Shown in pieces: positions 4,600-45,988 of a DNA stretch of 49,765 nucleotides. Source of the DNA: Oscillospiraceae bacterium (lineage in GTDB: Bacteria > Bacillota > Clostridia > Oscillospirales > UBA929); contig JAIRTA010000012.1 in NCBI GenBank assembly GCA_031255175.1, positions 1-49,765 on the forward strand. The letters are read 5' to 3'. The notes below the pieces were generated by a model. The model saw nothing but the letters and a program-made list of their open reading frames with translations. It did no database searches and was not told the origin of the DNA. The translations under genes and the position numbers were made by a program. Numbering within the stretch: position 1 is the stretch's first letter; every line of letters begins with the position of its first letter.

Positions 4600-4650
4600 A
4601 CGCCCTCCTTCTGCCGCTTTTTTGTTTCCGGCGCAAATCAAAACATCCGA

Positions 4651-6451: not shown

Positions 6452-6461
6452 AAATTTCACC

Positions 6462-23127: not shown

Positions 23128-23329
23128 ACAAAAACCTCCGAACGATATACAAATCGACACAAGATCGACAGTTGACTTGAAATATTTGGAAAATTTTGTT
23201 TCTTCCCCGCGGTTTTTCGAAGCAATGGCTCCCGGATGATTATATCAAACCAGAGAGCGGGATGCAAGCCGCGCGAGGCCGGGAATTCGCGGGTGCCGCG
23301 CCCTGACGGGCGGAAAGGAGGCGATTGGC

Positions 23330-23824: not shown

Positions 23825-23916
23825 CCGGTCGGCGGCGCGAAGTATTTGTAAATATTTGTAAATATTGCCCTCCCGCCCGGGAGGGCCCGGACAGAGGGAG
23901 AGGACCGGGAACGCCT

Positions 23917-24603: not shown

Positions 24604-24697
24604 CGGCGGCGCGGCGGCAACAGGGCAACAGGGGCCTGTGAAAATCTCGATTTTCATATTTGCTATATTTTTACAGTGTCTTGACAGGGGGTGCGGC

Positions 24698-27140: not shown

Positions 27141-27234
27141 GGGCAAACAGAAAGACCCCGGCGGGGGGTCTCTCTGCGGTCCACATGTCGCCTAAAGAAT
27201 TTTCTGTTTTTTATAAAAAATTGTAAGTTTCGCC

Positions 27235-27263
27235 TTGCCCTTTTCCCCTATCTATGGTATAAT
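27235..27263 (+). promoter_or_regulatory. Strong-looking sigma-A promoter for the 81-aa ORF
   Basis: TTGCCC (27235-27240), a 17-nt spacer ending in TGG (extended -10), then TATAAT (27258-27263). An AT-rich tract lies upstream. Confidence 0.5.
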
Positions 27264-27340
27264 GAAAGGGATGACACACAACGGACCGTTGCGGGGCCCG
27301 CCGGCGCGGGCGGCCCTACACGATAGGGAGGGTATTTGCT

Positions 27341-27586
27341 GTGACTTCCGGGAAAAACTATCGAAAAACCGTCGGTATTTTGTCGGCCGATGCGCGGGCG
27401 CGAAAACTTTACGAAAAACGCGAGAAGGCCCACCGCGACCTGTCATCCCGAGCAGGCGGCGTCAAACAGAAGCAGTCTGTTGAGATGGCTCTGGAGCTGA
27501 TCAAGCGCAACCGCCCCATAGAGGAGATCATCGAGGGCACCGGGCTGTCGCGCGAGGACATTGAGCACATTCAAGAGCTCGCCTGA
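27341..27586 (+). CDS. Small hypothetical protein resembling the C-terminal tail of Rpn/YhgA-like PD-(D/E)XK putative transposases
   Basis: GTG 27341 lies 8 nt after GGGAGGG. ..ARKLYEKREKAHRDLSS..VEMALELIKRNRPIEEIIEGTGLSREDIEHIQEL matches the pattern of that family's tail, but no nuclease domain is present. Confidence 0.5.
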   Translation: MTSGKNYRKTVGILSADARARKLYEKREKAHRDLSSRAGGVKQKQSVEMALELIKRNRPIEEIIEGTGLSREDIEHIQELA

Positions 27587-27625
27587 GTCAAGATCGATCG
27601 GGGGAAGCGACCAAAAAGCGCCGCC

Positions 27626-27666
27626 ACGCCACTATATGTTGTGGAGACCACAACATATAGTGGCGT
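27626..27666. terminator. Perfect 19-bp-stem hairpin between convergent genes (probable bidirectional terminator)
   Basis: acgccactatatgttgtgg (27626-27644), loop aga, ccacaacatatagtggcgt (27648-27666). It lies 15 nt beyond the stop of the giant minus-strand gene and 40 nt beyond the plus-strand ORF. The T-tracts are weak. Confidence 0.6.
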
Positions 27667-27680
27667 TTGTGCGCGGCGGA

Positions 27681-30600
27681 TCAGGTGACGGAGACCGTCA
27701 CAAGATGGGTGGCGCCGCCGAATTCATCCGACGCGCGCACCACGACAAGTGCCGTGCCCGCCTTTTTGCCGGTGACAACCCAGGCGCCGTTCACCATGTC
27801 CGCCGTCGCGATGGCGGTGTTTGAGGACGTCACGGTGTACGCCTCCCTCGGCAGCGCTTCCACGTCTAGGTTCAGCGGCGCTTTGCCCTTGATGCGCAGC
27901 GAGATGCGCGCCGACGAGTGCGCCCGCACCTTCGCCGGGATCGCCGCGGACTCCGCGGGGCCGCCCAGCGTCACATAGCAGCGGTGCCCGCCGACCCACG
28001 GCAGATCCGCCGTCGCCTCCGCCGGCAGCGTGACGTCCATGCGTCCGCTGTCGTCCGCCGCCACATAGGCGTGGTAGTCGTCCGTCTCCGCCGGCGTGTA
28101 GTTGTAGCCGATGCGCAGCCAAACCCGTTCGCCCGGTTCGAAGCCGGACCCCGTAACCGTCACGGTCCGGGTCTCCCGGTCGGCCGCGGCGTCAAACGCA
28201 AAGTCGGCCGCGAAGTCGGCTTTGCCGTACACCTCGATCTCGGCGAGCTGCAGGCGGTTGTAGGCGGCGTTCTCGTTCGTCGCGGACAGGCCCAGCATCG
28301 TCGTCACAACGCGCACATAGCGCGCCTGCGTAAAGTCGAAGACATATTCGCCCCGGCCCTGCGCCTCCGTCGGCGCCGATTCGTTCGTCACTGTTTTGAC
28401 GGTCTCGTAGTTTGTGCCGTCAACGCTCAATTGGATCGTGAAATCCTGCGGATAGTTCGCATAACCGCCCTCGGCCGTCAGCGCGTCCGTCCGCGGGTAG
28501 AGATACACCCTGTCGACGTTCTTCACGGTCTCGAGGTCGATCGTGATCTTATGCGGGTCGCCGGAGATGTCGCGCCGGCTGTGGTAGATATTTGTCGTAA
28601 ACCCGCCTTTTCCGGAGCGGCTGAGCCGCTCGCCGTCCACCAAGTTGTTCGCGCCCCAAGTGCCGTCAGTGGGCGCCGACATGGCATTGTCGGCCGCGAC
28701 GGGCACCTTCCCGCGCGCCAGATTGAGGGGGCCGACCCACCCGGTGTGCGCCAGCAGGGTGCGGTCCTCATCCATGCGAATTGTGTATTCCATCCGCGTC
28801 TCGTCGCCGAGGTCGGCGCCGTCGATCTCCGTCACGCCGTATTCGCCCGCGTAGCGGGACGCAAACCGGACCTGCACATCCTCACCCTTCGGGAAGATGC
28901 CCAGATACGGAGCCGGCTGCAACGTGCCGTTGATATAGATCCGGACATTGGCCCGGTCGGTCACATCCACGCGGAGGGCCTGGATTTCGGGTTCGGAACC
29001 CGTGACGAGGTAAGCGCCCATCTCACTGAGCTGCATCCGGTAGTTGGTTCCGCCTCCGTCGTCGCTGGCCGGCGTACCCAGGCGGGTGCAAACGATGCGG
29101 AGATACCGCCAGGTCTGCGTCTCAAAGTTGATCACATACGGGGCAAAATAGGGGGGCTCGGCGTCTGTCTCAGACCGGATGACCGTCCAGTCGGATCCGT
29201 TTTGCGATCCCTCCAGGCGGAAGTCGCGCGGGAATCCCGCCATCTTTCCATCCATCGTGAACGCGTCGCTCCGGGGGTAGAGCTGTATGCGGTTGAACGG
29301 CTTGGGCGCGCCCATGTCGAAGGTGACGGTCGGGATGTTGTTCCCGGTGGGGTTCTCTCCCACGATCGCGCTGGTCCAACCGTTGCGGCCGTTTCGGGCC
29401 GTCAGCAGGCCGTCGATCAGGTTGCCCCGGCCCCACGCGCCGTTCATCTCGTTTGTATGGTTGGCCTGCGCCGTAACCGTCGACCCGGCCAGCAGATTTT
29501 CGCCGCCGATCCATTTGAACCGGGCCGCGAAGGTCTCTTCTCCGGTCACGCCCTCAACGGTCCGCGGATTGTCGGTTGTTCCGTCTTCCCACGCCTCAAA
29601 CGCGAAGTCCACGTCGTTGTAGGGGCGCACAGACAGAGAGAGCGTCTCTTTGGAGCCCACGGTCACCAGCGCCGGCGTCTTCTGAGACCGGGCTTCGCCG
29701 GTGGCAAAGCGGGTCGTCACCTCGGCGACGGCGTCGGGCGTATCGCTCTGGACCGTCAGGTCGTAGCGCTCTCCGATGACCGCCACGGCGGACGTGAACG
29801 CGTATGAGCCGGACAGCACCTCGTAGGCGGCCCGCTGCGTCGCCTCGTCGTACCCCAGGTAGGTGACGCCCTCCGCCTCGGCGGCGGCCACCGCGCCCTC
29901 CCGCACCAGCGCGGGGTTTTGGGTCGGAACAAGCACGGTGGCGCTGGTGTTGGCCGGCACGGTGAAGTTGTAGGCGAAGTCGCCGGTGTCTTGATCCCAA
30001 GTCCAGGCGCTCTCGACGCGGCCCGACACGGAGTCGTAACGGCCGCGGGCATAGGTGAGCGTCCCCCCGTACTGCGGGTCTAAGACAAAGTGGCGGAACC
30101 CGGGCGCCGCCTCGTCGCGCCGGATGCCCAGCACGCCGGACATCATCCACTCGCCGATGGAACCGAAGGCGTAATGGTTGAAGGAATTCATCCCCGTCGG
30201 GCCAAAGCCGTCTGCGACGGTATAGGAGTTCCAGCGTTCCCAGGTGGTGGTGGCGCCCTGGTTGATGCTGTAGATCCAGGAGGGGTCTTTCTCCTGCTCC
30301 AACAACCGGAAGGCCGCCTCCGGCTGTCCGTTTTGCGAGAGCGCGGGCGTCAAATAGCTGATGCCGATAAACCCGGAGCTCAGTGTCCAGCCGCGGTCGC
30401 GGATGTTTTCCATCAGCTTCTCGGCCAGGAAGGCGTTGTCGGCCTCGTCTGTCAGCCCGAAGTAGATGAGCATCGCGTACGGCGTCTGCGTGGTCGCCTT
30501 CAGCGTGCCGTCCGCGTTGCGGAACGTGGCCATGAATGCGTTTACGATGTTTTGCGTGACGGCCTCATATTGGTCCGCGATCGCCGTCTCGCCGATGACG

Positions 30601-33600
30601 CGGGCCATTTTGGCGAAGAGCTTGTTCGAATACGCCGAAAACAGCGTGTTGGTCATGTCTCTGGGTGAGTCCACCACCGAGACCCAGTCGCCGTAGTTGT
30701 TGTCGCGCCCGGTGTAACGGTTGCGGATATAGCCGCTGCTCCGCTCGGGCGCGTTGAGGAAGTCGCACCAGGCCTTCATCGATTCGAAGCTGTCGCGGAT
30801 GATCTGCTCGTCGCCGTACTGCTGATACATCTGCCACGGGACAATGACGGCTCCGTCGCCCCAGGCGTTTGACCACTGCGTGAAACCGGATGTGCGCACG
30901 GCCGGGATCAGCACGGGCACAAGCCCCTTATGTGCCTCCGACGTCTCCTCATTCAGCTGGTAATCGCGCAGATCGCGCAGCCATTTGGCGTAGAACCGGT
31001 CGGCGTTCGCCAGATAGACGCCCGTGCCGGCGAAGATCTGGGTGTCGCCGGTGTAGCCCAGGCGCTCGTCGCGGTTCGGGCAGTCGGTGGGGATAGAGAC
31101 AAAGTTGCCGCGCATACCCCAGACGACGTTGGAGTAAAGCTGGTTCACCTTGGGGTTGGACGTCTCAAACGCGCTGGTGAGCGCGTTGTCGGAGCTGATG
31201 GCAATGGCCGTGACGTCCTCCGGCGGGATGGCCTCGTCCACACCGGTGATCTCGATGTACCGGAAGCCGTGGAAGGTGAAGCGCGGCGTATACGTCTCGC
31301 CCGCCGGGTCTCCCTTTAACGTGTAATAGTCGTAGGCGACCGGCACCTGTTGGTCTCGCAGGTTGGCCCGGTAGACGGTGCCTATGGGGCCGTCGCCGTT
31401 ATTTACGGCCGCCTCACCGGGATTTTTGTAGGCGCTGGCGGTGTTCAGCATCTCGCCGTGCCGGATCATGATCCGGGTGCCCGCGGCGCCCTTCACCTTG
31501 ATGGTGACGAACCCGGCGATGTTCTGCCCGAAATCGTAGGTGTACTGACCGGAAACAGGCTCTGTCAGTATGGGATTTTCAAACCGTTCCACCTCGCGCA
31601 CGGGCGGCCCGATCTGCGGTACAAGCTGCACCGTGGCGGGCGGCGGGGTGTGAATCCCGGCGGGCGTCCAGCCGGCCGCGTCGTACCCGGCCGTGTTCCA
31701 ACCGGCGCAGTCGTAGCGCGCGTCGTAAGTCTCCCCCGCGTAGTTCTCGGCGTATAGGATCGGCCCGGGGTGGTACCGCCAGCTCCCGTCGGTCACGATG
31801 ACCTGCTCTGTGCCGTCCTCATAGGTGATAACCAGCTTACCCAGCAGCGACTGGGTGCTTCCGTACATGTTGTACCCGTAGAGCTGGTGCGGGCCGGAGT
31901 ACCAGCCCATGCCCAGCATGCCTCCGATGGCGTTGCCGCCGGGCCGCAGCATACCGGTGACGTCGTAGACTTGATACATGATGGTGTAGTAGTAGTCCGT
32001 CCAGCCGGGGGCCAGGTAGATGTCACCCACCTTCTCCCCGTTGAGCGAAAACTCATAGTAGCCCCGGGCCGTGGCGTAGAGGCGGGCGCTCTTTACGGGT
32101 TTGTCCACGGCAAATTCCTTGCGAAACAGCGGTTCGCCGCCCTCCGGCGGGGCCGGGTCCACAACATTGCGGCTGCCCGTGAACGTCTCGCCGTCCACGC
32201 GGTAGACGCCGTTTTGGGTCGTGCCGCGGGTCCCGAACATTCCGGTGGGCGCGCTGTCGAACGTCTCCGCGTAGAGAAGCCGGTCGCTGTCGCCGGTGTT
32301 GTCCCAGATCTGGATGTTGTCGTACTCTGTGATCTCCTCGTTGTTGTTGTCGTGGATCTGCCGAAAACCAATTTTTCCCAATTTCCAGGTGCCGGCGACG
32401 GCGCGCGCGTCGTCGATGACTGTCAGCGCTCCGCCCTTCGGCCCCACGGATGTGGTGATCACGGCGCCGTTTTGACTCTCTCTCACGACAATCCGGCAGC
32501 GGTACCAGGCGTGTTTGCCCTCCTCGTTGTCGGGGATCACGTTGTCGATCTTAATCTCCGCCATCGAAGCGCCGCCCGGATTCCAGCGGTGGGGCCGGAA
32601 GTAGGGCGTGCCGCCGTAGGGGCGCTCCACCGGATTGATGTTGAACTGCCACATGAGGTAGTTGTTCCCGGCGGAGGCGAAGATCATGCCGCCGCCGTCT
32701 TTGACCATCCGGAAGTCGTATTCGATCGTGTAATCCGCGACGTCCGGGTTTGCGGTGTCGGTCGGTTTCGTGAGCCAGAGAGCGCCGTCCCACGCGGCGC
32801 TCGTCGGGTTCATAAAGCCGGTTTCAAACCAAGCCGGTTCGCTGACGGCGGGCCCGACGTTCGTCTGCACGGTCACGCGCCAGTAGTACCGTGTGGTGGG
32901 CTCCAACGCCTCGCCTTTGTAAGGGATGTTCAATGTGTTGTCGGAAGTCTCAGCCGCCGTCCACACGACGGGGCCGTCGGGCGCGCCCTTCGTCACCGCG
33001 ATCTGATAGCTCTGCTGCCTGACACCCCGGACATCGGAGTCCAGCACCCAGCTCAGGCGCGGGTGTGTCTCGTCCAACCCCAGCGGGTTTGTCTCATACT
33101 CTGTCTGGAGGTTCGTCACCCGCACCGCCGCCGCGGCGTATTCGCCGTCGACCTGGATCTCATATTCGCCGGAACCCAGTTCCACGGTGAGGAAACGTCC
33201 GTCGTTGACGGCGGGCGTTTTGACGCCGTTGATCACAAGCGCCTCCCGCGCCGGGTCGTCGGCGGGGATTGAGACGCGCGCCCGGGCGTTGGCCGGGATC
33301 GTGACGTTCGCCGTGAACGCCGCCGGCGCCGCCCCCGCGTCGAAGGAGACGCAGATCGGCCCTTTGACCGAGGGGCTCTTGATCTCGGCCGTTCTCAGCT
33401 CGGCCCCCGGCTGGAGTTTGATCTGGAAGAGCGAAAAGCCCGGGCTGAGCGGCTTGATGCCAAAGATGCCCTGGGTGATGAGCGCGCCCGGCGTGCTGCC
33501 CCAGGGGTGCGAATAGGTCATGTTGTTTTTGAGCTGCGGACTCCAGGCCTCGGTGGTGATCGTGGCCTGCTGCGTCTCTATCATCTGGGCCCAGGAGCGC

Positions 33601-36600
33601 ACCACGGAGGGGTCGTCCTCCAGCATGATCTCGCCGGCGAGGTCCCCCGCGCCCGCGTCGTAGAGGCCGCGCAGCACGAAGTACGCGCCGTACACGCTCG
33701 TGCGGAGGTAGCCGCCGCGGTAGGCCTGGGCCGCCTGGGTGCCCTCGTTGAGCGCCTTGTAAGACCGCAAAAAGGCCACCATCTTGTCGGCCATAGCCTG
33801 GTCGGTGTAGACCCCGTAGGCCAGAGCGTAGGCCGTGGCGTGCTGGGCCGTGTGGGTCGTGCGGGTGCCGTCCGCGCGGCACGAATCCCAAAACGCGCCG
33901 GTCTCGGGGTTGTAGAGCTTCTCAATCAGGCTGGCCTTGATGGCGTCGGCCTTGTCTTGATACCAGGCGGCCTCGTCCGCGCGACCCAGGAGCGCGGCGA
34001 TCCTCGCCATATCGCCGTAAGCGCCGTAAGCCACGGCGTTGTAGACGGTGGTAAAAGACCCCACGGTGGTGTTCAGCGCCTGCCGGGAATTGGCGCCGTC
34101 GCGGATGTAGCCGTCCTGTTCGTCCGCCGGCCAGTCGACAATGGCGCCGCCGGACTGCGCCGAGCGGTTGTCGCGGCAGAGGCCCACGGTCTCGTTGAAG
34201 CCGGATTGATAATTGACCGCCCCGCCGTAGGAGGTGGGCAGCTTGCGGTCCAGCAGCGTGTAATACTTTTCGAGGTTCGCCCTGTCCCCGGTGTACAGAT
34301 AGTCCGCCCAGGCCATTTCGATCGAAAACAGCCGGTACTCCGGCGGCCAGGTGGGCCAATCCATCAGGTACTGGTTCGTGTGCCGGGCCAGGGCGTAGTT
34401 GTCTGAGAAGGCGTAGCTGCCGTACTGGTTGAGGATAAGATCACCCTCGTACGCCCGGCGCTCCCGGGAATAGGAGTCTGTGTATTGGTCCTGGTTCGTG
34501 GCCTTTATGGAATATTTTACCAATTCTACCAGTTGGTTGAAAAATTCGTTGTCGCCGGAGCGGAGATAGGAGGCGTCGTCGTCAAAGGCCTGGCGAACAT
34601 GGAGACCCGTCACCATGTCCGTCGTGATCTCGATGGGCGCGTCGACGAATTGGATCCACCGGTAGTTGTACATCAGCATCGAGGGCAGGACGTTGAGCCC
34701 GGGGGCAATGGTCCACGTCATGTTATAATTTGGGTTGTCGCGCCAGCCGTCGTAGCGCACCGTGCCGACGGGCCCGCTTGTGGAACTGTCCGGGTTCGGG
34801 TCCGTGGCCTTGATCAGCGACTCGCCGGGCTGGACAACGAGGGTAAAGGGGCTCCCCGTCGTGTTGTTGATCGCGAGACGGATGCCGCCCACAATGCCCT
34901 TGCCCAGATCCAGCACCTGGTATTCGTGGCCGCCGGCGTTCACCACCGTGCGGCTCACGGCGGGCATGTCAAAGCGCAAAATATTTTCGGCGGTGTAGGG
35001 GGCAAAGATCCGCGGGGACGCGTCGATCTGCCCCTTGTCGTTCGGCACGCGCCAGGAGGCGTCTTCGACGAAGCCCACATCGTTCCACCCGGTGGGGTAA
35101 TAGAGCCCGTTCATCTCCTCAAGCGCCTGGGTCACATAGCCGCCGTTTGTAAAGGACCTGTTGTCGCCGAAGGCGCCGGTGCCGTCCTTGGCCCGCCACT
35201 GGGCCCTGTCGCGCGCGGAGTTGATGAGCACCGCCTTGGTGCCGTCCTCGTAGAAGACCGTGAGCTGGAACAAAACCGACTTTCCGGAGCGGGAGTAATT
35301 GGACGCGGCGATGACGTTCTCACCGTCCTTCAGGAGGTCCGTGACGTCGAAGCTGTTGTAGTAGTAAAGATTTGGCGCCGTGGTGTTGAGCCCGCCGCTC
35401 ATGTTGTATTTGTGCACGCGGGCCGGGCCGACGCCCACCGATTGTCCGTTTATGTAAAGGTCGTAGATGTAAGAGAGGCTGTCGTCGCCTGTTCCGCTCT
35501 CTACCATATACGCCCCGCCGCTGACAACGGCCTTGCGGATGTTCGCCGTGCCGGCCAACGGGAAGGTATGCCGCAGGAAAATGAAGTTGCCCTTTTCGGA
35601 GGGCGCCGTGTTCGGGTTCAGCACGGCCCGGGCCCCTGTTCCCACATTCAGCCGGCCGCTGTCGATCGTGCAGCCCGACCCGAACTGATTGGGCGTCGCG
35701 GCGGTGAAATCGTTCTCATAGAGCACCTCGCCGGCCGGATAGCTCCGAACCACAACGTTGTCCACATAGCCCCGTTCGCTGTTTCCCGTGCGGTAGCCGA
35801 CGCTGCCGGCCGCGATGCGCTGCGCCGCCGCCGTGTAGCTCCGCTCGCCCGCCAGCACGTAGTTGTCCTCCCCGTTGTCCGGCGTGTCGTCGATGTAGGC
35901 CGCGATCTGCACGGGGTTCGCCCCCTGCACCCGGATCTTGACCCGAACGGTCTTGTTGGCCGCCAATGTCCCGGCGGGCAAAGGAATGTCCGCCCCCTCG
36001 ATGGCCATCGCGGTGTTATTTCCAAAGTGCGGTACGATCACATTTCTGTCGATACGAAACTGCCACATATAGGCGTGTGTGTCGTCCGTGGCCCGGAAGT
36101 AGACGCCCAGCGCCACCGCCGTGATCGTGATGTCCTGCTCGATCGTGTAGTCCGTCCACGACAGCGCCGGATTGCTCACACCCTGCGCCAGCCAGACGCC
36201 GTTGGTGGAGGCCCATTCCGACCCCACGGCCGTGACAAAATCGACGGGCTGCGACCAGTCGCTCTCCGCGCCGGACTTGTCCCTCGTCTTGACGCGCCAG
36301 TGATAGAGCGTGTTGGGTGCCAACGTGTTCGCCGGCACGATGTGAGACGCGGCGGCGGTAGACACCCAACCGGTGCCGTATGTGTCAAATGTCTCGGGGC
36401 CTGTTCCCAACTCGAGGCAATAGGCCGTCTGCATCTCGTCGAAATCGCTGTCCTGGAAGATCCACGTCAGGGTGATGTCCTCGGCGTACTCCACATTGTA
36501 CCCCTCGCGCAGCAGGTTCACCTTCAGGTTGTCGGGCGGCAGCGTCGCATTGTCGGGCGGCAGCGCGGCGGAGAACGCCGTCACAGCCGGGACACAGCCC

Positions 36601-36644
36601 GCCACCAGAAACGCGGATAACAAAAGCGCTAAGATCCGTTTCAT
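27681..36644 (-). CDS. Giant multimodular alpha-L-rhamnosidase: two GH78 units in tandem, 2 x F5/8-type-C (CBM32-like) modules and an Ig/Big_2 tail; probable lipoprotein
   Basis: The track ORF is 27681-36770. ATG 36644 lies 6 nt after AAGGAAG, followed by MKRILALLLSAFLVAGC.. (lipobox-like). GH78 unit 2 carries TDCPNRDERLGYTGD (31044-31088, verified codon by codon) and TTTWERWNSY..NSFNHYAFGSIGEW. Unit 1 carries DSYSRERRAYEGD (34440-34478). See the findings for module coordinates. Confidence 0.9.
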   Translation of the reverse strand: MKRILALLLSAFLVAGCVPAVTAFSAALPPDNATLPPDNLKVNLLREGYNVEYAEDITLTWIFQDSDFDEMQTAYCLELGTGPETFDTYGTGWVSTAAASHIVPANTLAPNTLYHWRVKTRDKSGAESDWSQPVDFVTAVGSEWASTNGVWLAQGVSNPALSWTDYTIEQDITITAVALGVYFRATDDTHAYMWQFRIDRNVIVPHFGNNTAMAIEGADIPLPAGTLAANKTVRVKIRVQGANPVQIAAYIDDTPDNGEDNYVLAGERSYTAAAQRIAAGSVGYRTGNSERGYVDNVVVRSYPAGEVLYENDFTAATPNQFGSGCTIDSGRLNVGTGARAVLNPNTAPSEKGNFIFLRHTFPLAGTANIRKAVVSGGAYMVESGTGDDSLSYIYDLYINGQSVGVGPARVHKYNMSGGLNTTAPNLYYYNSFDVTDLLKDGENVIAASNYSRSGKSVLFQLTVFYEDGTKAVLINSARDRAQWRAKDGTGAFGDNRSFTNGGYVTQALEEMNGLYYPTGWNDVGFVEDASWRVPNDKGQIDASPRIFAPYTAENILRFDMPAVSRTVVNAGGHEYQVLDLGKGIVGGIRLAINNTTGSPFTLVVQPGESLIKATDPNPDSSTSGPVGTVRYDGWRDNPNYNMTWTIAPGLNVLPSMLMYNYRWIQFVDAPIEITTDMVTGLHVRQAFDDDASYLRSGDNEFFNQLVELVKYSIKATNQDQYTDSYSRERRAYEGDLILNQYGSYAFSDNYALARHTNQYLMDWPTWPPEYRLFSIEMAWADYLYTGDRANLEKYYTLLDRKLPTSYGGAVNYQSGFNETVGLCRDNRSAQSGGAIVDWPADEQDGYIRDGANSRQALNTTVGSFTTVYNAVAYGAYGDMARIAALLGRADEAAWYQDKADAIKASLIEKLYNPETGAFWDSCRADGTRTTHTAQHATAYALAYGVYTDQAMADKMVAFLRSYKALNEGTQAAQAYRGGYLRTSVYGAYFVLRGLYDAGAGDLAGEIMLEDDPSVVRSWAQMIETQQATITTEAWSPQLKNNMTYSHPWGSTPGALITQGIFGIKPLSPGFSLFQIKLQPGAELRTAEIKSPSVKGPICVSFDAGAAPAAFTANVTIPANARARVSIPADDPAREALVINGVKTPAVNDGRFLTVELGSGEYEIQVDGEYAAAAVRVTNLQTEYETNPLGLDETHPRLSWVLDSDVRGVRQQSYQIAVTKGAPDGPVVWTAAETSDNTLNIPYKGEALEPTTRYYWRVTVQTNVGPAVSEPAWFETGFMNPTSAAWDGALWLTKPTDTANPDVADYTIEYDFRMVKDGGGMIFASAGNNYLMWQFNINPVERPYGGTPYFRPHRWNPGGASMAEIKIDNVIPDNEEGKHAWYRCRIVVRESQNGAVITTSVGPKGGALTVIDDARAVAGTWKLGKIGFRQIHDNNNEEITEYDNIQIWDNTGDSDRLLYAETFDSAPTGMFGTRGTTQNGVYRVDGETFTGSRNVVDPAPPEGGEPLFRKEFAVDKPVKSARLYATARGYYEFSLNGEKVGDIYLAPGWTDYYYTIMYQVYDVTGMLRPGGNAIGGMLGMGWYSGPHQLYGYNMYGSTQSLLGKLVITYEDGTEQVIVTDGSWRYHPGPILYAENYAGETYDARYDCAGWNTAGYDAAGWTPAGIHTPPPATVQLVPQIGPPVREVERFENPILTEPVSGQYTYDFGQNIAGFVTIKVKGAAGTRIMIRHGEMLNTASAYKNPGEAAVNNGDGPIGTVYRANLRDQQVPVAYDYYTLKGDPAGETYTPRFTFHGFRYIEITGVDEAIPPEDVTAIAISSDNALTSAFETSNPKVNQLYSNVVWGMRGNFVSIPTDCPNRDERLGYTGDTQIFAGTGVYLANADRFYAKWLRDLRDYQLNEETSEAHKGLVPVLIPAVRTSGFTQWSNAWGDGAVIVPWQMYQQYGDEQIIRDSFESMKAWCDFLNAPERSSGYIRNRYTGRDNNYGDWVSVVDSPRDMTNTLFSAYSNKLFAKMARVIGETAIADQYEAVTQNIVNAFMATFRNADGTLKATTQTPYAMLIYFGLTDEADNAFLAEKLMENIRDRGWTLSSGFIGISYLTPALSQNGQPEAAFRLLEQEKDPSWIYSINQGATTTWERWNSYTVADGFGPTGMNSFNHYAFGSIGEWMMSGVLGIRRDEAAPGFRHFVLDPQYGGTLTYARGRYDSVSGRVESAWTWDQDTGDFAYNFTVPANTSATVLVPTQNPALVREGAVAAAEAEGVTYLGYDEATQRAAYEVLSGSYAFTSAVAVIGERYDLTVQSDTPDAVAEVTTRFATGEARSQKTPALVTVGSKETLSLSVRPYNDVDFAFEAWEDGTTDNPRTVEGVTGEETFAARFKWIGGENLLAGSTVTAQANHTNEMNGAWGRGNLIDGLLTARNGRNGWTSAIVGENPTGNNIPTVTFDMGAPKPFNRIQLYPRSDAFTMDGKMAGFPRDFRLEGSQNGSDWTVIRSETDAEPPYFAPYVINFETQTWRYLRIVCTRLGTPASDDGGGTNYRMQLSEMGAYLVTGSEPEIQALRVDVTDRANVRIYINGTLQPAPYLGIFPKGEDVQVRFASRYAGEYGVTEIDGADLGDETRMEYTIRMDEDRTLLAHTGWVGPLNLARGKVPVAADNAMSAPTDGTWGANNLVDGERLSRSGKGGFTTNIYHSRRDISGDPHKITIDLETVKNVDRVYLYPRTDALTAEGGYANYPQDFTIQLSVDGTNYETVKTVTNESAPTEAQGRGEYVFDFTQARYVRVVTTMLGLSATNENAAYNRLQLAEIEVYGKADFAADFAFDAAADRETRTVTVTGSGFEPGERVWLRIGYNYTPAETDDYHAYVAADDSGRMDVTLPAEATADLPWVGGHRCYVTLGGPAESAAIPAKVRAHSSARISLRIKGKAPLNLDVEALPREAYTVTSSNTAIATADMVNGAWVVTGKKAGTALVVVRASDEFGGATHLVTVSVT

Positions 36645-36783
36645 AGTTTTCTTCCTTTCTCTCCCCAAATATTTCGGATTTCTTCCCGATAACGCAATAT
36701 TCCGCACCAATGCGTCATCTTCGTCTCTCAAACCCCACCCACTTCCAGTCGCAGACGAGATTTTCGACACAATTCCACACGTC

Positions 36784-36852
36784 TATTATAAGATGCTCTC
36801 CCGCAAAGTAAATGGAAAAAAGGAAACAGTTTGCATGGAAAATAGTAAACTC
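36784..36852 (-). promoter_or_regulatory. Conserved 69-bp promoter/operator module upstream of the giant GH78 gene
   Basis: By hand alignment, 65/69 positions are identical to 45863-45931. On the minus strand it has TTTACT (36807-36812), a 16-nt spacer, and TATAAT (36785-36790). The palindrome AAACAGTTT (36824-36832) lies upstream of the -35. It sits ~140 nt upstream of the ATG. Confidence 0.55.
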
Positions 36853-37014
36853 ACCGGGTTTTTACAATAAATGGAAATTTCTAAGCCGTCTCATCCCTCC
36901 GGTCGTATCAAGAAACATACCAAACACGTCAAAAAAGTCTAAAGACGCTTTGCTCCGGGCTGTATTATAATGGGGTTGCTCATAATAAATTTTGACAGAG
37001 AGGGGGAATTACGC

Positions 37015-37236: not shown

Positions 37237-40200
37237 ATGACACTAAAGAGGATTATCAGTTGTTGTTTGGTCATGATTTTGTCAATCTCATTGACTGCGC
37301 AACTTTCCGCAGACGGCGCTGAATTGGGCTCGCCTGAGTATTCCGGCTTTGGGCCAACGGCTGACGCCCAGCGGTATTGGAATCTGGTCGGTGCTGCGGA
37401 CAAAATGAGGTTTGTCTCGACGGGCACGAATTCAAGCAAAATATCATTTGACGACTCGGACAACGTAAAAGCAGTCCTAAATTCGCTCCCGGACGGCCAA
37501 AACCCGTACGAGTGGAAAGACTACGTTGTGGAAGCGGCGATCACCCTTAACGGCAACGCCGCGAGCAACGCCGGCGTAATGTTCAGAACGACCGATGCCG
37601 TTAACGGGAGTTCTGATTCATACAAGGGCTATTACATTGGGTTTGGCCCCAGTTACTATATACTCGGCAGAGCAAACAACAACTGGACAGAGATAAACAG
37701 AAGCAGCAACAGGAGTATAGCCGTTGGCGTATCTCATACAATCAAAATTATCGTCTATGGCAGCAAGATCGCGATTTACGGCGATGGCGAAGAGATCTTC
37801 AATTTCGTCGACACTACATATACGGCCGGTTCTGTCGGGTTCCGCGCTTGGGGCAGAGAATTCGTCGCGGACAGCATGACAGTGCGCCCGGTAACGGCCG
37901 CGGATCTTGACACAGCATTCGGAGGGGCGGATGTGCCGAACAGAGCCGTGGAACATGTTTTTCAGATGGGAAACACCAATCCTTTTGTGCCGGGATACGC
38001 CGCGGACGGTTCGATCTTTTTTGACGAACATTCGCAGTATTACTACGTCTTCGCGACAAATGACGGGAACGGAGGAAAAAACACCTGGCCGACTCAACTC
38101 TGGTATTCGAAAGACTTAATCAGTTGGGAACACCGGGATGTGGAATTGCCGGAAGAGTGGTTCATGAAATCCAACGATTACGACGAACAGCCGCACGATA
38201 TGGTTTGGGCGCCGAGCGTAATATACAATCCCAAAAACCAAAAATATTATATTACGTACACCATCGGCAGTCAACGAATCGGTATGTCGGATTCTTTATT
38301 TGGCCCGTGGGTTGACGCGAATAAAGTTGAACCGAACAAGCCGTTTATTAATACGCACGACGGGCAGTTTTTCCTGGATGACGACGGTTCTATCTATATG
38401 ACCGTCGGCGCCTGGACATTTTGCATCATAAAGCTGGATTTCGATGCAGAGGGCAAAGTCTCCGCCGGGGCACAGGACGACCCTCGTATGAACCGGACGT
38501 CCGGCCGAGCAACCAACCCGTTCAAATATTACACGGCGGAGGGCATAAGAAACTCCTTTGAGGCTTCGGAAATATTCAAACGCAACGGTTTGTATTACCT
38601 GGTCTGGTCGACGGACGGCGGCGCGGCTTATAACCTCAGATATGCGGTCGCAGATGACGTTTTCGGCCCATATCGTGAGATAAACGGTTCGTTTGATAAT
38701 CCGATTCTGTCCACCGACAACGAGAAAAATATACTGGGGCCCGGGCATCACGCCACATTTGTCAAGGGCGATGATTACTATATAATTTATCATCGACAAA
38801 GCTATCCTTTTGTCGACAGCAAACGTCAGACATGTATTGAGAAGCTCAATTTTAACGCGGATGGAAGTATTCAAAAAATAATTCCATCCCACTCCGGTGT
38901 CGCGTTGTTCGAGAATCCCGAAAAGCGCACCAATATAGCCCTCGGGAAGCAGACTAGAGTTTCGTCCGCCAGGGCATACGCGCCAACTTCTCAATCCAAT
39001 GTCAGCTTCAGATACAGCGGCAATTTTGCGGTCGACGAAAATGGGGGCACCCGCTGGGACGCGGGTATCGGCGCCAAAAATCCGTGGTTGATTGTGGATC
39101 TGGGCAGTGATTCCGATATATCGGCCATACAGACAACATTCGAGTTTACCAATAAGAAATACTTTTACAAACTCGAAACGCTCGCGCAAGAGTACGCGAA
39201 GGATATCGATTCTGCGGCGAAAAACGAAAATTGGCGGGTTTATGTTGATAAAACCGCCGAAGGTGCACAATATTCGCCTGTAGAGGACAAGGCCGCCGGC
39301 GGTACCGACATAACGGCGAGGTATGTGCGCATTACAATCTACAAAACCGAGGGCATCCCCGAAACGGCGGAAGCCGGAAATAAAGTGAATGGCGACAATG
39401 CCATAAGCATTTTTGAGATAAAAGTTTTCGGGGAACAGACCGCCAGCGATTTGAACCGTGTCATCGAGGCCGAAAGTTTCAATCTGCAATCCGGCTTGAC
39501 GGTTGAGGCAAGCGCGCTCACCGGGATGAATATCTGCGGCACAAACAACAATGATTTTATCATGTACAAAAACATTGATCTCGGAACGGGAGCGGATGTT
39601 ATCCAGGCGCGCGTCGCGGTTGGATCCGCAGGCGGGCGTGTAGACGTAAGGATGGATGCCGCAACCGGACCTCTGATCGGCACGGTTGACGTAACAGACA
39701 CCGGTGGCTGGCAGATGTGGCATACCTTGACGGCAAAACTTTCAGACGCGGCTGTCGGGAAGCATGATATTTATTTGGTTTTCAAGGCTGACAACGACAG
39801 AGAAGGCGTCGCAAATATCGACTGGATTAAATTCGGGGATGCGAGCGTTAACAAGTCCAGTCTGGGGCAGATGTTTTCACTGACCGAAAGCGAATTGCTG
39901 AAAGATTACACGCCGAGTACGCTTAGGCAATTGCAGACTGTGTATGACAACGCGCTGGCTGTATATGAGGACGCCGACTCGACACAGCGGCAGGTTGACG
40001 ATGCCGTGATCGCGTTAATCAGGGCTATCGAATCGCTGGTTTATGCCGGTGGCGTTCAGGCCGAGTACTACACCATACAGCGAAGACCGGGCCTCGATCG
40101 CGGAGCTGCCTATCCTCACGGCCTGGACACGACGATGAAAAAGGATGTCTTGGTTGACGACAATATAAATTTCAACAATATGGAAGGCCTGCTTTCGCAA

Positions 40201-41010
40201 CACGCCGGACAAAACGACTACGCAGGCGTCAGATGGACCGGAAGAATTAAAGCGCCTGTAACGGGGACATATGTATTTACTACCTATACCGACAACGGCG
40301 TTCAATTCGACTTTGACGGTGAGACAAATCTGATCAATTGGTGGGTCAACGATTGGGAACAGTATAAGTCAACAAAAGCGGTGACGCTGCAAGAAGGCGA
40401 AATATATGATTTTGAGATGCGTTATATGGAAATTGAAGGCGGGTCATGCGCGTTACTGTACTGGACGATTGACGATGGAGCACGCCAGATCGTCCCGAGA
40501 ACATCCTTGCTTTTGCCTTTGCTTGACTATGGGAAGCTCGATTCTCTGACCGCTCAGGCCAAAGCGCTGAGAGAAAACCAATTTACTCCGGCATCCTGGA
40601 AAAACATGCAGGATTCGCTGCAGGAGGCCTTGGATGTACGCGGCGGAGATAAAATCCTTCAGTACCAGGTGGATGCCGCGGCGACGGATTTGGACCAAAA
40701 AATCAAGGCTCTCCTGCCGGTGTCTGTACCGGACTGGGAAGCGTCGTTTGTGGCAGCCGAATCGGACGGAAAGATCGATGTTTCGGCTTATGTGTCGAAT
40801 AACACAACCACATTGAGCACGGTCGACGTAGTCATCGCCGAGTACGACAAGCTTACGGGCAGGTTGCTTGCGGTCGACTCCAAACAGGTTGTGCTCAATG
40901 ACTCAGACGCGGAAATCAGCCTGACACTGGCCGTTAAGGGAGATTATGTGCTCAAATTGTTCGTATGGGACAGCGCCACATATGCCCCGAAGATCGAACC
41001 TGTTTCGTAA
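37237..41010 (+). CDS. Multimodular GH43 glycosidase (LamG/DUF1080-like - GH43 - F5/8-type-C - CBM6-like - FIVAR - PA14 - FIVAR - beta-sandwich)
   Basis: AGAGGAGAG lies 6 nt before the ATG, followed by signal peptide MTLKRIISCCLVMILSISLTAQLSA. GH43 motifs are ..DMVWAPSVIY.., ..THDGQFFLDDDGSIYM.. and ..EASEIFKRNGLYYLVWS... The F5/8-C module shows ..FAVDENGGTRWDAG..PWLIVDLG... The CBM6-like module shows ..VIEAESFNLQSG..IDWIKFG. The PA14 module shows ..VQAEYYT..YAGVRWTGRIKAPVTGTYVFTTYTDNGV... Confidence 0.9.
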   Translation: MTLKRIISCCLVMILSISLTAQLSADGAELGSPEYSGFGPTADAQRYWNLVGAADKMRFVSTGTNSSKISFDDSDNVKAVLNSLPDGQNPYEWKDYVVEAAITLNGNAASNAGVMFRTTDAVNGSSDSYKGYYIGFGPSYYILGRANNNWTEINRSSNRSIAVGVSHTIKIIVYGSKIAIYGDGEEIFNFVDTTYTAGSVGFRAWGREFVADSMTVRPVTAADLDTAFGGADVPNRAVEHVFQMGNTNPFVPGYAADGSIFFDEHSQYYYVFATNDGNGGKNTWPTQLWYSKDLISWEHRDVELPEEWFMKSNDYDEQPHDMVWAPSVIYNPKNQKYYITYTIGSQRIGMSDSLFGPWVDANKVEPNKPFINTHDGQFFLDDDGSIYMTVGAWTFCIIKLDFDAEGKVSAGAQDDPRMNRTSGRATNPFKYYTAEGIRNSFEASEIFKRNGLYYLVWSTDGGAAYNLRYAVADDVFGPYREINGSFDNPILSTDNEKNILGPGHHATFVKGDDYYIIYHRQSYPFVDSKRQTCIEKLNFNADGSIQKIIPSHSGVALFENPEKRTNIALGKQTRVSSARAYAPTSQSNVSFRYSGNFAVDENGGTRWDAGIGAKNPWLIVDLGSDSDISAIQTTFEFTNKKYFYKLETLAQEYAKDIDSAAKNENWRVYVDKTAEGAQYSPVEDKAAGGTDITARYVRITIYKTEGIPETAEAGNKVNGDNAISIFEIKVFGEQTASDLNRVIEAESFNLQSGLTVEASALTGMNICGTNNNDFIMYKNIDLGTGADVIQARVAVGSAGGRVDVRMDAATGPLIGTVDVTDTGGWQMWHTLTAKLSDAAVGKHDIYLVFKADNDREGVANIDWIKFGDASVNKSSLGQMFSLTESELLKDYTPSTLRQLQTVYDNALAVYEDADSTQRQVDDAVIALIRAIESLVYAGGVQAEYYTIQRRPGLDRGAAYPHGLDTTMKKDVLVDDNINFNNMEGLLSQHAGQNDYAGVRWTGRIKAPVTGTYVFTTYTDNGVQFDFDGETNLINWWVNDWEQYKSTKAVTLQEGEIYDFEMRYMEIEGGSCALLYWTIDDGARQIVPRTSLLLPLLDYGKLDSLTAQAKALRENQFTPASWKNMQDSLQEALDVRGGDKILQYQVDAAATDLDQKIKALLPVSVPDWEASFVAAESDGKIDVSAYVSNNTTTLSTVDVVIAEYDKLTGRLLAVDSKQVVLNDSDAEISLTLAVKGDYVLKLFVWDSATYAPKIEPVS

Positions 41011-45725: not shown

Positions 45726-45862
45726 GCATCTCTTCCTTTCTCTTCCTACAATATTTCCGGTCTCCTTCAAAGACGCGCCACGCGACACAACCGCGCCGCT
45801 CCGCCCGCCAAATCACGCCCCCTTCCGGCAGCGGGCAAACTGTTGACGCAACTTTACACATT

Positions 45863-45931
45863 TATTATAAGATGCTCCCTCGCAAAGTAAATGGAAAAAA
45901 AGAAACAGTTTGCATGGCAAATAGTAAACTC
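45863..45931 (-). promoter_or_regulatory. Second copy of the conserved 69-bp promoter/operator module, upstream of the 1,490-aa GH78 gene
   Basis: This is the same module as 36784-36852. It has TATAAT (45864-45869, minus strand) and the palindrome AAACAGTTT (45903-45911). An inverted copy of GCAAACTGTT lies at 45834-45844, on the other side of the -10/-35 elements. Confidence 0.55.
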
Positions 45932-45988
45932 GCAAAATTTGCAACCTGCCTTCCGGCTTCGGCGCCGTTTGGCCGCCCTAAAACAGCG

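What the first reader, a model, noticed from the sequence alone, without database searches (positions are those of the whole stretch)
27681..36644. A single 2,987-codon ORF fuses two complete, non-identical GH78 rhamnosidase units
One uninterrupted frame (ATG 36644 to the stop at 27681-27683) contains two full GH78-type units in series. Each unit has five parts in the same order. First is an FN3-like N-domain (..TLYHWRVKTRDKSGAESDWSQPVDFVT in unit 1, ..TRYYWRVTVQTNVGPAVSEPAWFETGF in unit 2). Next come an inserted beta-sandwich and a rhamnosidase N-type domain (YIYDLYINGQSVG in unit 1, ARGYYEFSLNGEKVG in unit 2). Last are an (alpha/alpha)6 catalytic domain and a C-terminal beta domain. Unit 2 (approx 29901-33125) has the canonical TDCPNRDERLGYTGD (31044-31088) and TTTWERW. 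Unit 1 (approx 33126-36533) has DSYSRERRAYEGD (34440-34478) and ITTEAW. It keeps the acidic residues but loses the Cys-Pro and Trp context. Both units may therefore be active with different specificities. Downstream are two F5/8-type-C (CBM32-like) modules (approx 29001-29498 and 28221-28724), each preceded by an InlB-B-repeat-like module, then an Ig/Big_2 tail. The N-terminus looks like a lipoprotein signal (..FLVAGC). To my knowledge, characterised GH78 enzymes are mostly single-catalytic-module proteins of much smaller size, so a tandem-GH78 surface enzyme of this size is unusual.
Basis: partly seen in the sequence, partly recalled or inferred. Interest (0 to 1): 0.7.

Follow-up and report, generated by a model that had tools for sequence, protein, structure and literature searches.

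The report
Two rhamnosidase genes fused into one
A gut-type Oscillospiraceae bacterium carries one giant secreted enzyme with two different rhamnose-cleaving (GH78) units, made when a 718-base deletion joined two neighbouring genes that are still separate in a close relative; it is a tidy example of enzyme evolution by gene fusion, not a new kind of enzyme.

Summary
Window 27681-36644 (-) is one uninterrupted 2,987-codon ORF with two complete, about 23% identical GH78 alpha-L-rhamnosidase units, two CBM32-like modules and an Ig-like tail.

Unit 2 is a clear relative of Streptomyces avermitilis SaRha78A (E 5e-187). Unit 1 belongs to a rare, divergent GH78 subfamily. It passes three Pfam GH78 thresholds, its AlphaFold model matches only GH78 structures best, and both catalytic Glu are retained.

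The new result is the origin. In a related Oscillospiraceae MAG (about 88% nucleotide identity) the two halves are adjacent separate genes. The window lacks exactly 718 nt: the Ig tail and stop of gene A, a 52-nt spacer, and the 49-codon signal peptide of gene B. This restores the frame. A third relative has only gene B. Both units show purifying selection (dN/dS 0.12-0.16).

Tandem GH78 is rare but not unique. Three other metagenomic proteins, one from an Oscillospiraceae MAG, carry two GH78 catalytic domains in a different pairing.

Best reading: a real bi-catalytic secreted rhamnosidase for a rhamnose- and galactose-bearing plant glycan. The junction rests on one MAG contig and activity is untested. 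It is a new variant of a known kind, of moderate interest.

The parts
27681..36644 (-). Fused ORF of 2,987 codons: signal peptide, GH78 unit 1, GH78 unit 2, two CBM32-like modules and an Ig-like tail
   Evidence: uninterrupted frame. Pfam domains; the same 2,987-aa protein is in the public collection (P0272) on a 49,765-nt contig.
36645..36875 (-). Leader and promoter region. A conserved element of about 70 nt (TTTACT-16 nt-TATAAT with repeated TTTCCAT words) is shared with the upstream regions of the third GH78 gene and of gene B in L001.
   Evidence: blastn L001 9695-9933 matches window 36875-36637; alignment A3.
36573..36644 (-). N-terminal signal peptide MKRILALLLSAFLVAGCVPAVTAF. It has a possible lipobox VAGC (Cys17) or a type I cleavage site after AFSA.
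   Evidence: sequence. LPAM_1 15 bits, below the cut-off of 20. Most homologues have no Cys at this position.
36225..36530 (-). Unit 1 N-terminal Ig domain (Ig_Rha78A_N), aa 39-140
   Evidence: 54.3 bits, cut-off 27.4.
35475..36224 (-). Unit 1 inserted all-beta domain, aa about 141-390, in the position where SaRha78A has CBM67. DUF1080 / 3-keto-disaccharide-hydrolase-like by homology.
   Evidence: all-beta, pLDDT mostly 85-95; no Pfam hit in the window; the equivalent insert in P0006, P0009 and P0057 hits PF06439 above cut-off.
34596..35474 (-). Unit 1 Bac_rhamnosid_N-like and concanavalin-like beta domains, aa about 391-683
   Evidence: sub-threshold Pfam hits in the right order (22 and 13.4 bits); the model superposes on multi-domain GH78 structures.
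33489..34556 (-). Unit 1 (alpha/alpha)6 catalytic domain, aa 697-1052. Predicted general acid E728 (34461-34463) in DSYSRERRAYEGD. Predicted general base E1032 (33549-33551) in TTEAW. H1046 lies in SHPWG.
   Evidence: Bac_rhamnosid6H 80.4 bits; the catalytic columns are invariant; they correspond to SaRha78A Glu636 and Glu895.
33243..33461 (-). Unit 1 C-terminal beta domain (Bac_rhamnosid_C), aa 1062-1134
   Evidence: 43.1 bits, cut-off 22.1.
33132..33137 (-). Fusion junction. Codon 1170 (GCC) is the last codon from gene A. Codon 1171 (GCG) is the first from gene B. The linker is about 8 aa (DGEYAAAA).
   Evidence: blastn breakpoints at window 33135 and 33133; three-way sequence comparison.
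32808..33119 (-). Unit 2 N-terminal Ig domain (Ig_Rha78A_N), aa 1176-1279
   Evidence: aligns to SaRha78A residues 4-128.
32103..32807 (-). Unit 2 inserted beta domain, aa 1280-1514, replacing CBM67 of SaRha78A
   Evidence: SaRha78A residues 128-303 are not aligned; no Pfam hit.
31197..32102 (-). Unit 2 Bac_rhamnosid_N (aa 1515-1686) and concanavalin-like domain (aa 1698-1816)
   Evidence: 197.5 and 100.9 bits.
30135..31178 (-). Unit 2 (alpha/alpha)6 catalytic domain, aa 1823-2170. General acid E1860 (31065-31067) and general base E2136 (30237-30239).
   Evidence: aligned residue for residue with SaRha78A Glu636 and Glu895.
29898..30128 (-). Unit 2 C-terminal beta domain (Bac_rhamnosid_C), aa 2173-2249
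29001..29498 (-). First F5/8-type-C (CBM32-like) module, aa about 2383-2548
   Evidence: two F5_F8_type_C stretches; jelly-roll in the model, and the top Foldseek hits are CBM32 pairs.
28296..28670 (-). Second F5/8-type-C (CBM32-like) module, aa 2659-2783
   Evidence: best stretch 2659-2783.
27684..28217 (-). C-terminal tail of about 178 aa ending in an Ig-like beta-sandwich. It is shared with gene A of L002, the third GH78 gene of the window, and P0167.
   Evidence: 78% nt identity to the L002 tail and 73% to window 41253-41628; the P0167 sequence; last 80 aa pLDDT 73-93; no Pfam family.
41253..45788 (-). Context: a third, separate GH78 gene (1,511-aa ORF) with the same tail and the same upstream element
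37237..41010 (+). Context: a gene encoding GH43 + CBM32 + CBM6 + PA14

Best explanation
The ORF is a real gene fusion. An ancestor had two adjacent, co-oriented genes. Gene A encoded signal peptide, divergent GH78 unit 1 and an Ig tail. Gene B encoded signal peptide, SaRha78A-like GH78 unit 2, two CBM32 modules and an Ig tail. A 718-nt deletion removed A's tail and stop codon, the 52-nt spacer and B's signal peptide. The result is one in-frame protein with one signal peptide, two catalytic units joined by a linker of about 8 residues, two CBM32 modules and one tail.

Inferred function: a secreted, probably cell-associated, bi-catalytic inverting alpha-L-rhamnosidase. The CBM32 modules hold it on a galactose-bearing plant glycan, such as arabinogalactan-protein / gum-arabic-type side chains or rhamnogalacturonan. 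The two anciently diverged active sites (about 23% identity) remove rhamnose in two different linkage contexts.

Shown here: the ORF, the domain content, conservation of the catalytic residues, the split arrangement in a relative, and purifying selection. Inferred: that the junction exists in the cell, activity, substrate, and any benefit from the fusion.
For: ORF and domains.

Unit 2 matches SaRha78A (3W5M) at E 4.6e-187, with Glu636 and Glu895 aligned to E1860 and E2136. SaRha78A releases rhamnose from gum arabic (PMC4052742).

Unit 1: AlphaFold2 pLDDT 84.8 and pTM 0.80. Foldseek ranks 1-11 are all GH78 structures (E 7e-45 to 3e-14), and the next fold class scores about 1e-9. D723, R727, E728, R729, D735, E1032 and W1034 are invariant across 29 GH78 sequences. 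D837, W838 and H1046 are nearly invariant. These match the rhamnose-binding and catalytic positions described for KoRha and SaRha78A.

Fusion origin: L002 (Oscillospiraceae MAG Cd354_bin102) nt 3-3048 match window 36180-33135 at 88%, and L002 3768-7051 match window 33133-29835 at 87.6%. L002 3049-3766 (519 + 52 + 147 = 718 nt) is absent from the window. In L001, gene B stands alone, with its own signal peptide, at 84% identity (P0011).

Selection: dN/dS is 0.12 for unit 1 and 0.13-0.155 for unit 2, with no stop or frameshift.

Assembly: no repeat of 19 nt or more lies near the junction that could collapse an assembly.

Context: a third GH78, GH43-CBM6-CBM32-PA14 and GH3-dockerin are neighbours. 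A close relative of unit 2 is fused to a GH2 beta-galactosidase (P0131). L001 has a GH106 rhamnosidase nearby.
Against: The fused arrangement is seen on one metagenome-assembled contig only. No second contig with the same protein or junction was found, and reads could not be inspected.

dN/dS averages over the whole divergence from the split relatives. It cannot show that both units stayed under selection after the fusion.

Unit 1 is only about 20% identical to any characterised GH78. Its closest PDB sequence match has E about 1e-3, so its substrate is a guess.

No enzyme assay exists for this protein or for any member of the unit 1 subfamily that I could find.
Confidence: 0.7

Rival explanations
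1. The fusion is an assembly or sequencing artefact. The organism really has the split gene A and gene B arrangement, as in L002, and the contig mis-joins them.
For: Only one contig carries the junction. Nothing was found by exact-protein look-up, genome scan or two metagenome scans. The source is a MAG contig. The closest relative is split.
Against: No repeat is shared between the two breakpoints: only 2-3 nt of microhomology, and no direct repeat of 19 nt or more in 27000-37000 near the junction. The join is exactly in frame and removes precisely the modules that would be redundant. Flanking sequence is collinear with L002 on both sides. From general knowledge, a de Bruijn assembler can only join through k-mers present in reads.
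Confidence: 0.1
2. The fusion is real, but unit 1 is not an alpha-L-rhamnosidase. Its rare subfamily has a different sugar or linkage specificity, or acts as a non-catalytic binding module. The protein would then be a rhamnosidase plus something else.
For: Unit 1 is about 20-23% identical to canonical GH78. Its PDB sequence matches reach only E about 1e-3. DCP is replaced by DSY and WERW by TEAW. The word-indexed search of 5.8 billion proteins found only 8 subfamily members. No member is characterised.
Against: All residues that bind rhamnose or catalyse hydrolysis in KoRha, SaRha78A and RhaB have conserved counterparts: the acid Glu, the base Glu, the GD Asp, the DW motif and the His of SHPWG. 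Those motifs are conserved through the subfamily at 32-55% identity. dN/dS of the catalytic domain is 0.09. GH78 is, to my knowledge, mono-specific for alpha-L-rhamnosides.
Confidence: 0.15
3. The fused state is ancestral, and the L002 arrangement arose by fission through insertion of a tail, stop, spacer and signal peptide.
For: With only three loci, polarity rests on parsimony.
Against: B's signal peptide is homologous between L001 and L002. A's tail is a full copy of a module also found on gene B, the third GH78 and P0167. All eight other unit 1-type proteins and all 120 listed unit 2-type relatives have a single GH78 catalytic domain. Fission would need one insertion to supply three functional parts.
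Confidence: 0.03

Closest known systems
SaRha78A, Streptomyces avermitilis alpha-L-rhamnosidase (GH78; PDB 3W5M/3W5N)
   Same: Unit 2 aligns over the N-terminal Ig domain and residues 303-1001 at E 4.6e-187. Both catalytic Glu (636 and 895) are conserved, and the order of the N, E, F, A and C domains is the same. Unit 1 has the same overall multi-domain fold (Foldseek E 7e-45).
   Different: The Ca-dependent rhamnose-binding CBM67 (SaRha78A residues about 128-303) is replaced in both units by a DUF1080-like beta-sandwich. SaRha78A has one catalytic module, no CBM32 and no tail.
Bacillus sp. GL1 RhaB (2OKX) and Bacteroides thetaiotaomicron BT1001 (3CIH), GH78
   Same: These are the only PDB sequence matches of unit 1 (E about 2e-3). 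The D-x4-E/D-x6-D spacing of the acid motif and the H-x-W motif after the base are shared.
   Different: About 15% identity. Unit 1 has the SaRha78A-type N-terminal Ig domain and inserted domain, which BT1001 lacks. These enzymes are homodimeric single-unit proteins.
Other tandem GH78-GH78 proteins in metagenomes: P0167 (NCBI MDR0381798.1, 2,714 aa), P0155 (3,502 aa) and P0200 (3,453 aa)
   Same: Each has two separate Bac_rhamnosid6H and Bac_rhamnosid_C domains in one polypeptide, with CBM32 modules. P0167, from an Oscillospiraceae MAG, has the same CBM32 and Ig tail as the window protein.
   Different: The order and partners differ. They have a canonical GH78 first and a RhaB/BT1001-like unit second (DCPDRERAQWWGD, TLWEFW). 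None contains a unit 1-type module. None is characterised or, as far as I could find, described.
Multi-catalytic CAZymes of plant-cell-wall-degrading Firmicutes, such as Caldicellulosiruptor CelA GH9-GH48 (from my own knowledge), and the GH78-CBM32-GH2 fusion P0131 found here
   Same: Several catalytic modules and CBMs sit on one secreted polypeptide. They are thought to gain from proximity on a complex substrate. P0131 carries a close relative of unit 2.
   Different: Those combine different GH families. Here two subfamilies of the same family are combined, and the unfused precursor state is directly observable.

Membership tests
GH78 alpha-L-rhamnosidase (unit 2, aa 1174-2249) | Sequence membership: the Pfam GH78 domain set above curated cut-offs, and close similarity to a characterised member | tested here: met
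   all five domains. E 4.6e-187 to SaRha78A; the NCBIfam equivalog rhamnosid_Stmyc scores 791 bits, below its 1,720-bit equivalog cut-off. It is therefore a family member, not an equivalog.
GH78 alpha-L-rhamnosidase (unit 2) | General acid and general base Glu (SaRha78A Glu636 and Glu895) | tested here: met
   E1860 and E2136 align to them; their roles, from PMC7263609.
GH78 alpha-L-rhamnosidase (unit 1, aa 39-1165) | Sequence membership: the Pfam catalytic domain above its curated cut-off | tested here: met
   Bac_rhamnosid6H 80.4 bits (24.5), Ig_Rha78A_N 54.3 (27.4), Bac_rhamnosid_C 43.1 (22.1). Bac_rhamnosid_N and Bac_rhamnosid are below cut-off.
GH78 alpha-L-rhamnosidase (unit 1) | An (alpha/alpha)6 barrel with flanking beta domains, closest to solved GH78 structures | tested here: met
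   pLDDT 84.8; ranks 1-11 are all GH78, with E 7e-45 to 3e-14.
GH78 alpha-L-rhamnosidase (unit 1) | Catalytic Glu pair and rhamnose-binding Asp, His and Trp | tested here: met
   E728, E1032, D735, R727 and W1034 are invariant; D837, W838 and H1046 are nearly invariant; the reference residues.
GH78 alpha-L-rhamnosidase (both units) | Hydrolysis of alpha-L-rhamnosides with inversion | not testable with these tools
CBM32 / F5_F8_type_C | A Pfam F5_F8_type_C match and a beta-jelly-roll fold | tested here: met
   two stretches, 96-100 bits in total; the model's best matches are CBM32 pairs (ZmpB 7JNB and others). Ligand specificity was not tested.
Bacterial lipoprotein | A lipobox [LVI][ASTVI][GAS]C at the end of the signal peptide | tested here: inconclusive
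   VAGC with Cys17 fits the pattern. LPAM_1 scores 15 bits, below its cut-off of 20. Most homologues have Cys-free type I signals.
Big_2 (PF02368) tail | A Pfam Big_2 match | tested here: not met
   no Big_2 hit, even at E 5. The last 80 aa are nonetheless a confident beta-sandwich.
Listeria-Bacteroides / InlB B-repeat (Flg_new) linkers | A Pfam PF09479 or PF18998 match | tested here: not met
   no hit for aa 2269-2382 or 2549-2640. The model shows small beta modules with pLDDT about 80 for the first and below 60 for the second.
Cellulosomal enzyme | A dockerin module | tested here: not met
   no dockerin in the fused protein. The neighbouring GH3 has one, and L001 encodes a cohesin-SLH protein.

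The most novel reading that the evidence does not exclude
The unit 1 subfamily has about 8 members in 5.8 billion proteins, none characterised. It may be a GH78 clade with a new linkage or aglycone specificity. The fusion would then physically couple it to a SaRha78A-like unit so that the enzyme strips two different rhamnosyl decorations from one plant glycan in a single binding event. That would be a naturally occurring, recently evolved bifunctional debranching enzyme whose unfused ancestor is available for direct comparison.
Probability: 0.2. Interest if true: 0.55.

Novelty: new variant of a known kind. Interest (0 to 1): 0.4.

Why it matters
Both halves are ordinary members of a well-known enzyme family, and multi-catalytic CAZymes are common in fibre-degrading Firmicutes. 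The finding does not change how rhamnosidases are understood. Its value is narrower, in three respects.

1. It documents a GH78-GH78 architecture that I could not find described in the literature.

2. It gives an unusually clean natural experiment. The fused, split and single-gene states of the same locus exist in related genomes at 84-88% nucleotide identity. Whether fusion improves activity on complex rhamnosylated glycans can therefore be tested with natural sequences.

3. It flags a rare, uncharacterised GH78 subfamily (unit 1) as a target for specificity screening, for example on gum arabic, rhamnogalacturonan or flavonoid rhamnosides.

Tried and rejected
Searches that found no independent copy of the fusion:
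- Exact-sequence look-up of the 2,987-aa protein on contigs gave nothing on record. The cluster table does list it once, as P0272, on the window's own contig.
- A protein-pattern scan across the junction in JGI metagenome contigs gave no confirmed hit.
- An exact 32-nt junction search in the same collection gave nothing. That collection evidently lacks the source samples, so these negatives are weak.
- The genome-contig scan returned only the split relative and distant single-unit genes.

Other checks:
- Literature searches for tandem or double GH78 proteins found only papers about two separate genes.
- Pfam scans of the isolated inserted domains, the two linker modules and the tail gave no significant family.
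- I considered that unit 1 might be a non-GH78 (alpha/alpha)6 enzyme, given weak MGH1-like and trehalase hits. I rejected this because the GH78 HMM scores much higher and the fold search ranks only GH78 first.
- I considered that the two units are a recent internal duplication. I rejected this because they are about 23% identical and share no nucleotide repeat.
- A 465-position GH78 catalytic profile, searched against 1.84 billion representatives, gave no hit above 554 bits. The window protein itself scores 1,309 bits with that profile. No representative therefore carries the same pair of units.

Full report
OBSERVATION

The minus strand of the window carries an uninterrupted reading frame from ATG 36644 to the stop at 27681-27683, 2,987 codons long. 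The longest version of that frame starts at GTG 36770. ATG 36644 is preceded by AAGGAAG at the right distance and opens a typical signal peptide, so it is the likely start.

DOMAIN CONTENT

On the whole protein, Pfam finds the complete GH78 set in the second half:
- Ig_Rha78A_N, aa 1176-1279
- Bac_rhamnosid_N, aa 1515-1686
- Bac_rhamnosid, aa 1698-1816
- Bac_rhamnosid6H, aa 1823-2170
- Bac_rhamnosid_C, aa 2173-2249

It also reports two stretches each for the Ig, 6H and C models.

Scanned alone, the first 1,173 residues hit three models above their curated cut-offs:
- Bac_rhamnosid6H, 80.4 bits (cut-off 24.5)
- Ig_Rha78A_N, 54.3 bits (cut-off 27.4)
- Bac_rhamnosid_C, 43.1 bits (cut-off 22.1)

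Bac_rhamnosid_N and the concanavalin-like domain score below cut-off but sit in the correct order.

The C-terminal 739 residues hold two F5_F8_type_C modules. An AlphaFold model of that part (pLDDT 71) shows two confident jelly-rolls, and its best PDB matches are CBM32 pairs.

The last 80 residues are nonetheless a confident beta-sandwich.

In homologues, the insert at the same position hits PF06439 (DUF1080 / 3-keto-disaccharide hydrolase) above cut-off. It occupies the place of CBM67 in SaRha78A, which is the only part of that enzyme that unit 2 does not align with.

The signal peptide has a formal lipobox (VAGC). It scores below the LPAM_1 cut-off, and most homologues have Cys-free signals. 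The lipoprotein call stays open.

ARE BOTH UNITS GH78, AND ARE BOTH LIKELY ACTIVE?

Unit 2 is an unambiguous relative of S. avermitilis SaRha78A (E 4.6e-187). The general acid Glu636 and general base Glu895 align to E1860 and E2136.

Unit 1 is remote. Its only PDB sequence matches are BT1001 and RhaB, at E about 2e-3. Three lines of evidence still place it in GH78:
- An AlphaFold2 model built on 29 sequences is good (pLDDT 84.8, pTM 0.80).
- The eleven best Foldseek matches of that model in the PDB are all GH78 rhamnosidases (E 7e-45 to 3e-14). The next fold class, GH94 phosphorylases, scores about 1e-9.
- In alignments of the three GH78 catalytic domains of the window and of 29 diverse GH78 proteins, the catalytic positions are conserved.

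In those alignments D723, R727, E728, R729, D735, E1032 and W1034 of unit 1 fall in invariant columns. D837, W838 and H1046 fall in nearly invariant ones. These are the positions that carry the catalytic acid and base and the rhamnose-binding Asp, His and Trp in KoRha, SaRha78A and RhaB.

The same motifs are kept in every member of the unit 1 subfamily.

Unit 2 also has Tyr at the ERLG(W/Y)TGD position. Unit 1's motif spacing is the RhaB/BT1001 variety of GH78.

The two units are about 23% identical and share no nucleotide repeat. They are old paralogues, not a recent duplication.

ORIGIN

Searching unit 1 against 5.8 billion proteins gave only ten hits. Eight belong to its subfamily, and all have a single GH78 unit.

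The best hit, P0001 (91% identity; Oscillospiraceae MAG), consists of unit 1 joined directly to the same C-terminal Ig tail that ends the window protein. Searching unit 2 plus the CBM region found P0011 (84% identity, full coverage), a stand-alone 1,838-aa rhamnosidase.

I fetched both contigs and compared them with the window.
- In L002 (the same contig as JAIRML010000089.1, isolate Cd354_bin102), gene A is unit 1 plus the tail. After a 52-nt spacer comes gene B, with its own 49-residue signal peptide and unit 2.
- L002 nt 3-3048 match window 36180-33135 at 88%.
- L002 nt 3768-7051 match window 33133-29835 at 87.6%.
- The segment between them is missing from the window.

At codon level the window lacks L002 3049-3766. 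That is 519 nt (172 tail codons plus the stop), 52 nt of spacer and 147 nt (the signal peptide of B), 718 nt in all. This shifts gene B by the one base needed to bring it into gene A's frame.

The junction lies between codon 1170 (window 33135-33137) and codon 1171 (33132-33134). The breakpoints share only 2-3 nt of microhomology.

In L001, gene B stands alone. Its upstream region is homologous to the region upstream of the fused gene in the window, and the join sits at the shared ATGAAACG start.

Three structural states of one locus therefore exist in related genomes at 84-88% nucleotide identity: B only, A and B split, and A-B fused. Parsimony makes the fusion the derived state. B's signal peptide and A's tail are both bona fide modules conserved elsewhere.

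IS IT REAL AND MAINTAINED?

Three points support the junction. No repeat that could collapse an assembly lies near it. The join is in frame. It removes exactly the parts that would be redundant in a single secreted protein.

Purifying selection is evident in both units. Against L002, dN/dS is 0.12 for unit 1 and 0.155 for unit 2, and 0.09 and 0.13 for the catalytic domains alone. Against L001, dN/dS is 0.13 for unit 2. These values integrate over the whole divergence, not only the time since the fusion.

The weak point is that the fused state is seen on one MAG contig only. The protein is in the public collection as P0272, on a 49,765-nt contig. No second instance was found.

HOW UNUSUAL IS IT?

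I built a profile of the three catalytic domains in the window and searched it against 1.84 billion representative proteins. It found about 17,000 GH78-like proteins. None scored above 554 bits, whereas the window protein scores 1,309 bits with the same profile. No representative therefore carries this pair of units.

Three long hits (P0155, P0167, P0200) do have two separate GH78 catalytic domains, confirmed by Pfam and by domain coordinates. They pair a canonical GH78 with a RhaB/BT1001-like second unit.

P0167, from an Oscillospiraceae MAG, ends in the same CBM32 and tail as the window protein. P0131 fuses a close relative of unit 2 to a GH2 beta-galactosidase. Another Oscillospiraceae contig has two adjacent GH78 genes (L006).

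Distant unit 1-type genes have no GH78 neighbour. These are in a Bacteroidales MAG, Lentilactobacillus sunkii, a Microbacteriaceae genome and Nocardioides.

Tandem GH78 is thus a rare but recurrent outcome in the Oscillospiraceae-type metagenomic genomes sampled here, not a singular event. I found no paper describing such a protein.

LIKELY FUNCTION

The neighbourhood holds a third GH78 gene with the same tail and the same upstream element. It also holds a GH43-CBM32-CBM6-PA14 gene and a GH3-dockerin gene. L001 adds a GH106 rhamnosidase and cohesin/SLH proteins. The rest of the window is housekeeping.

SaRha78A, the closest characterised relative of unit 2, releases rhamnose from gum-arabic arabinogalactan-protein.

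Together with the two CBM32 modules and the GH2 fusion partner seen in P0131, this points to a rhamnose- and galactose-bearing plant glycan as substrate. The two active sites would handle different rhamnosyl contexts. This step is inference.

VERDICT

The feature is a gene fusion of two adjacent GH78 genes: a new variant of a known kind, of moderate interest. Its main value is as a natural fused-versus-split pair for testing what fusion buys a CAZyme, and as a pointer to an uncharacterised GH78 subfamily.

Noticed in passing
window 36780-36850 (-) and about 45860-45935 (-); L001 9700-9800: A conserved upstream element of about 70 nt (GAGTTTACTATTTTCCATGCAAACTGTTTCTTTTTTTCCATTTACTTTGCGGGAGAGCATCTTATAATA) precedes the fused gene, the third GH78 gene and gene B of L001. 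It contains TTTACT-16 nt-TATAAT and repeated TTTCCAT words, followed by a leader of about 170 nt. It may be a shared promoter and operator of a rhamnosidase regulon.
   Followed up: partly
window 27684-28217 (-), 41253-41628 (-); L002 3049-3567: A C-terminal tail of about 175 aa ending in an Ig-like sandwich is shared at 73-78% nucleotide identity by several large glycosidase genes: the fused gene, the third GH78, gene A of L002 and P0167. It matches no Pfam family. It may be a lineage-specific surface-anchoring or scaffold-binding module.
   Followed up: partly
L001 9926-15517 compared with window 36644-33135: In L001 the whole of gene A (unit 1) is absent. The upstream region homologous to the window's is joined to gene B at the shared start ATGAAACG. 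This is either a precise deletion of gene A or the state before its insertion.
   Followed up: partly
proteins P0155, P0167, P0200, P0131 (not in the window): Other giant multi-catalytic proteins exist. Three have two GH78 catalytic domains each (a canonical unit plus a RhaB-like unit), and one is a GH78-CBM32-GH2 beta-galactosidase fusion with three Laminin_G_3 domains.
   Followed up: partly
window 37237-41010 (+), 41253-45788 (-), 46155-49370 (-), 583-3708 (+): The window holds a CAZyme cluster: GH43+CBM32+CBM6+PA14 with an N-terminal DUF1080-like domain, a third GH78 (1,511-aa ORF), and a GH3 with a type I dockerin. A NAGPA (phosphodiester glycosidase) protein with SLH repeats lies at the other end of the window. 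The organism appears to combine cellulosome-type (dockerin) and SLH-type surface display (cohesin-SLH in L001).
   Followed up: no
window 23236-26134 (+): A two-component system lies about 1.5 kb downstream of the fused gene's stop, on the opposite strand. It comprises an OmpR-type response regulator ORF with a long N-terminal extension before the receiver domain (receiver at aa 230-339) and a HAMP-HisKA-HATPase kinase. It is a possible regulator of the cluster, or the ORF may simply be over-extended.
   Followed up: no
L006 1-8708: An uncultured Oscillospiraceae contig has two co-oriented adjacent canonical GH78 genes 350 nt apart. This is the kind of arrangement from which further fusions could arise.
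   Followed up: no
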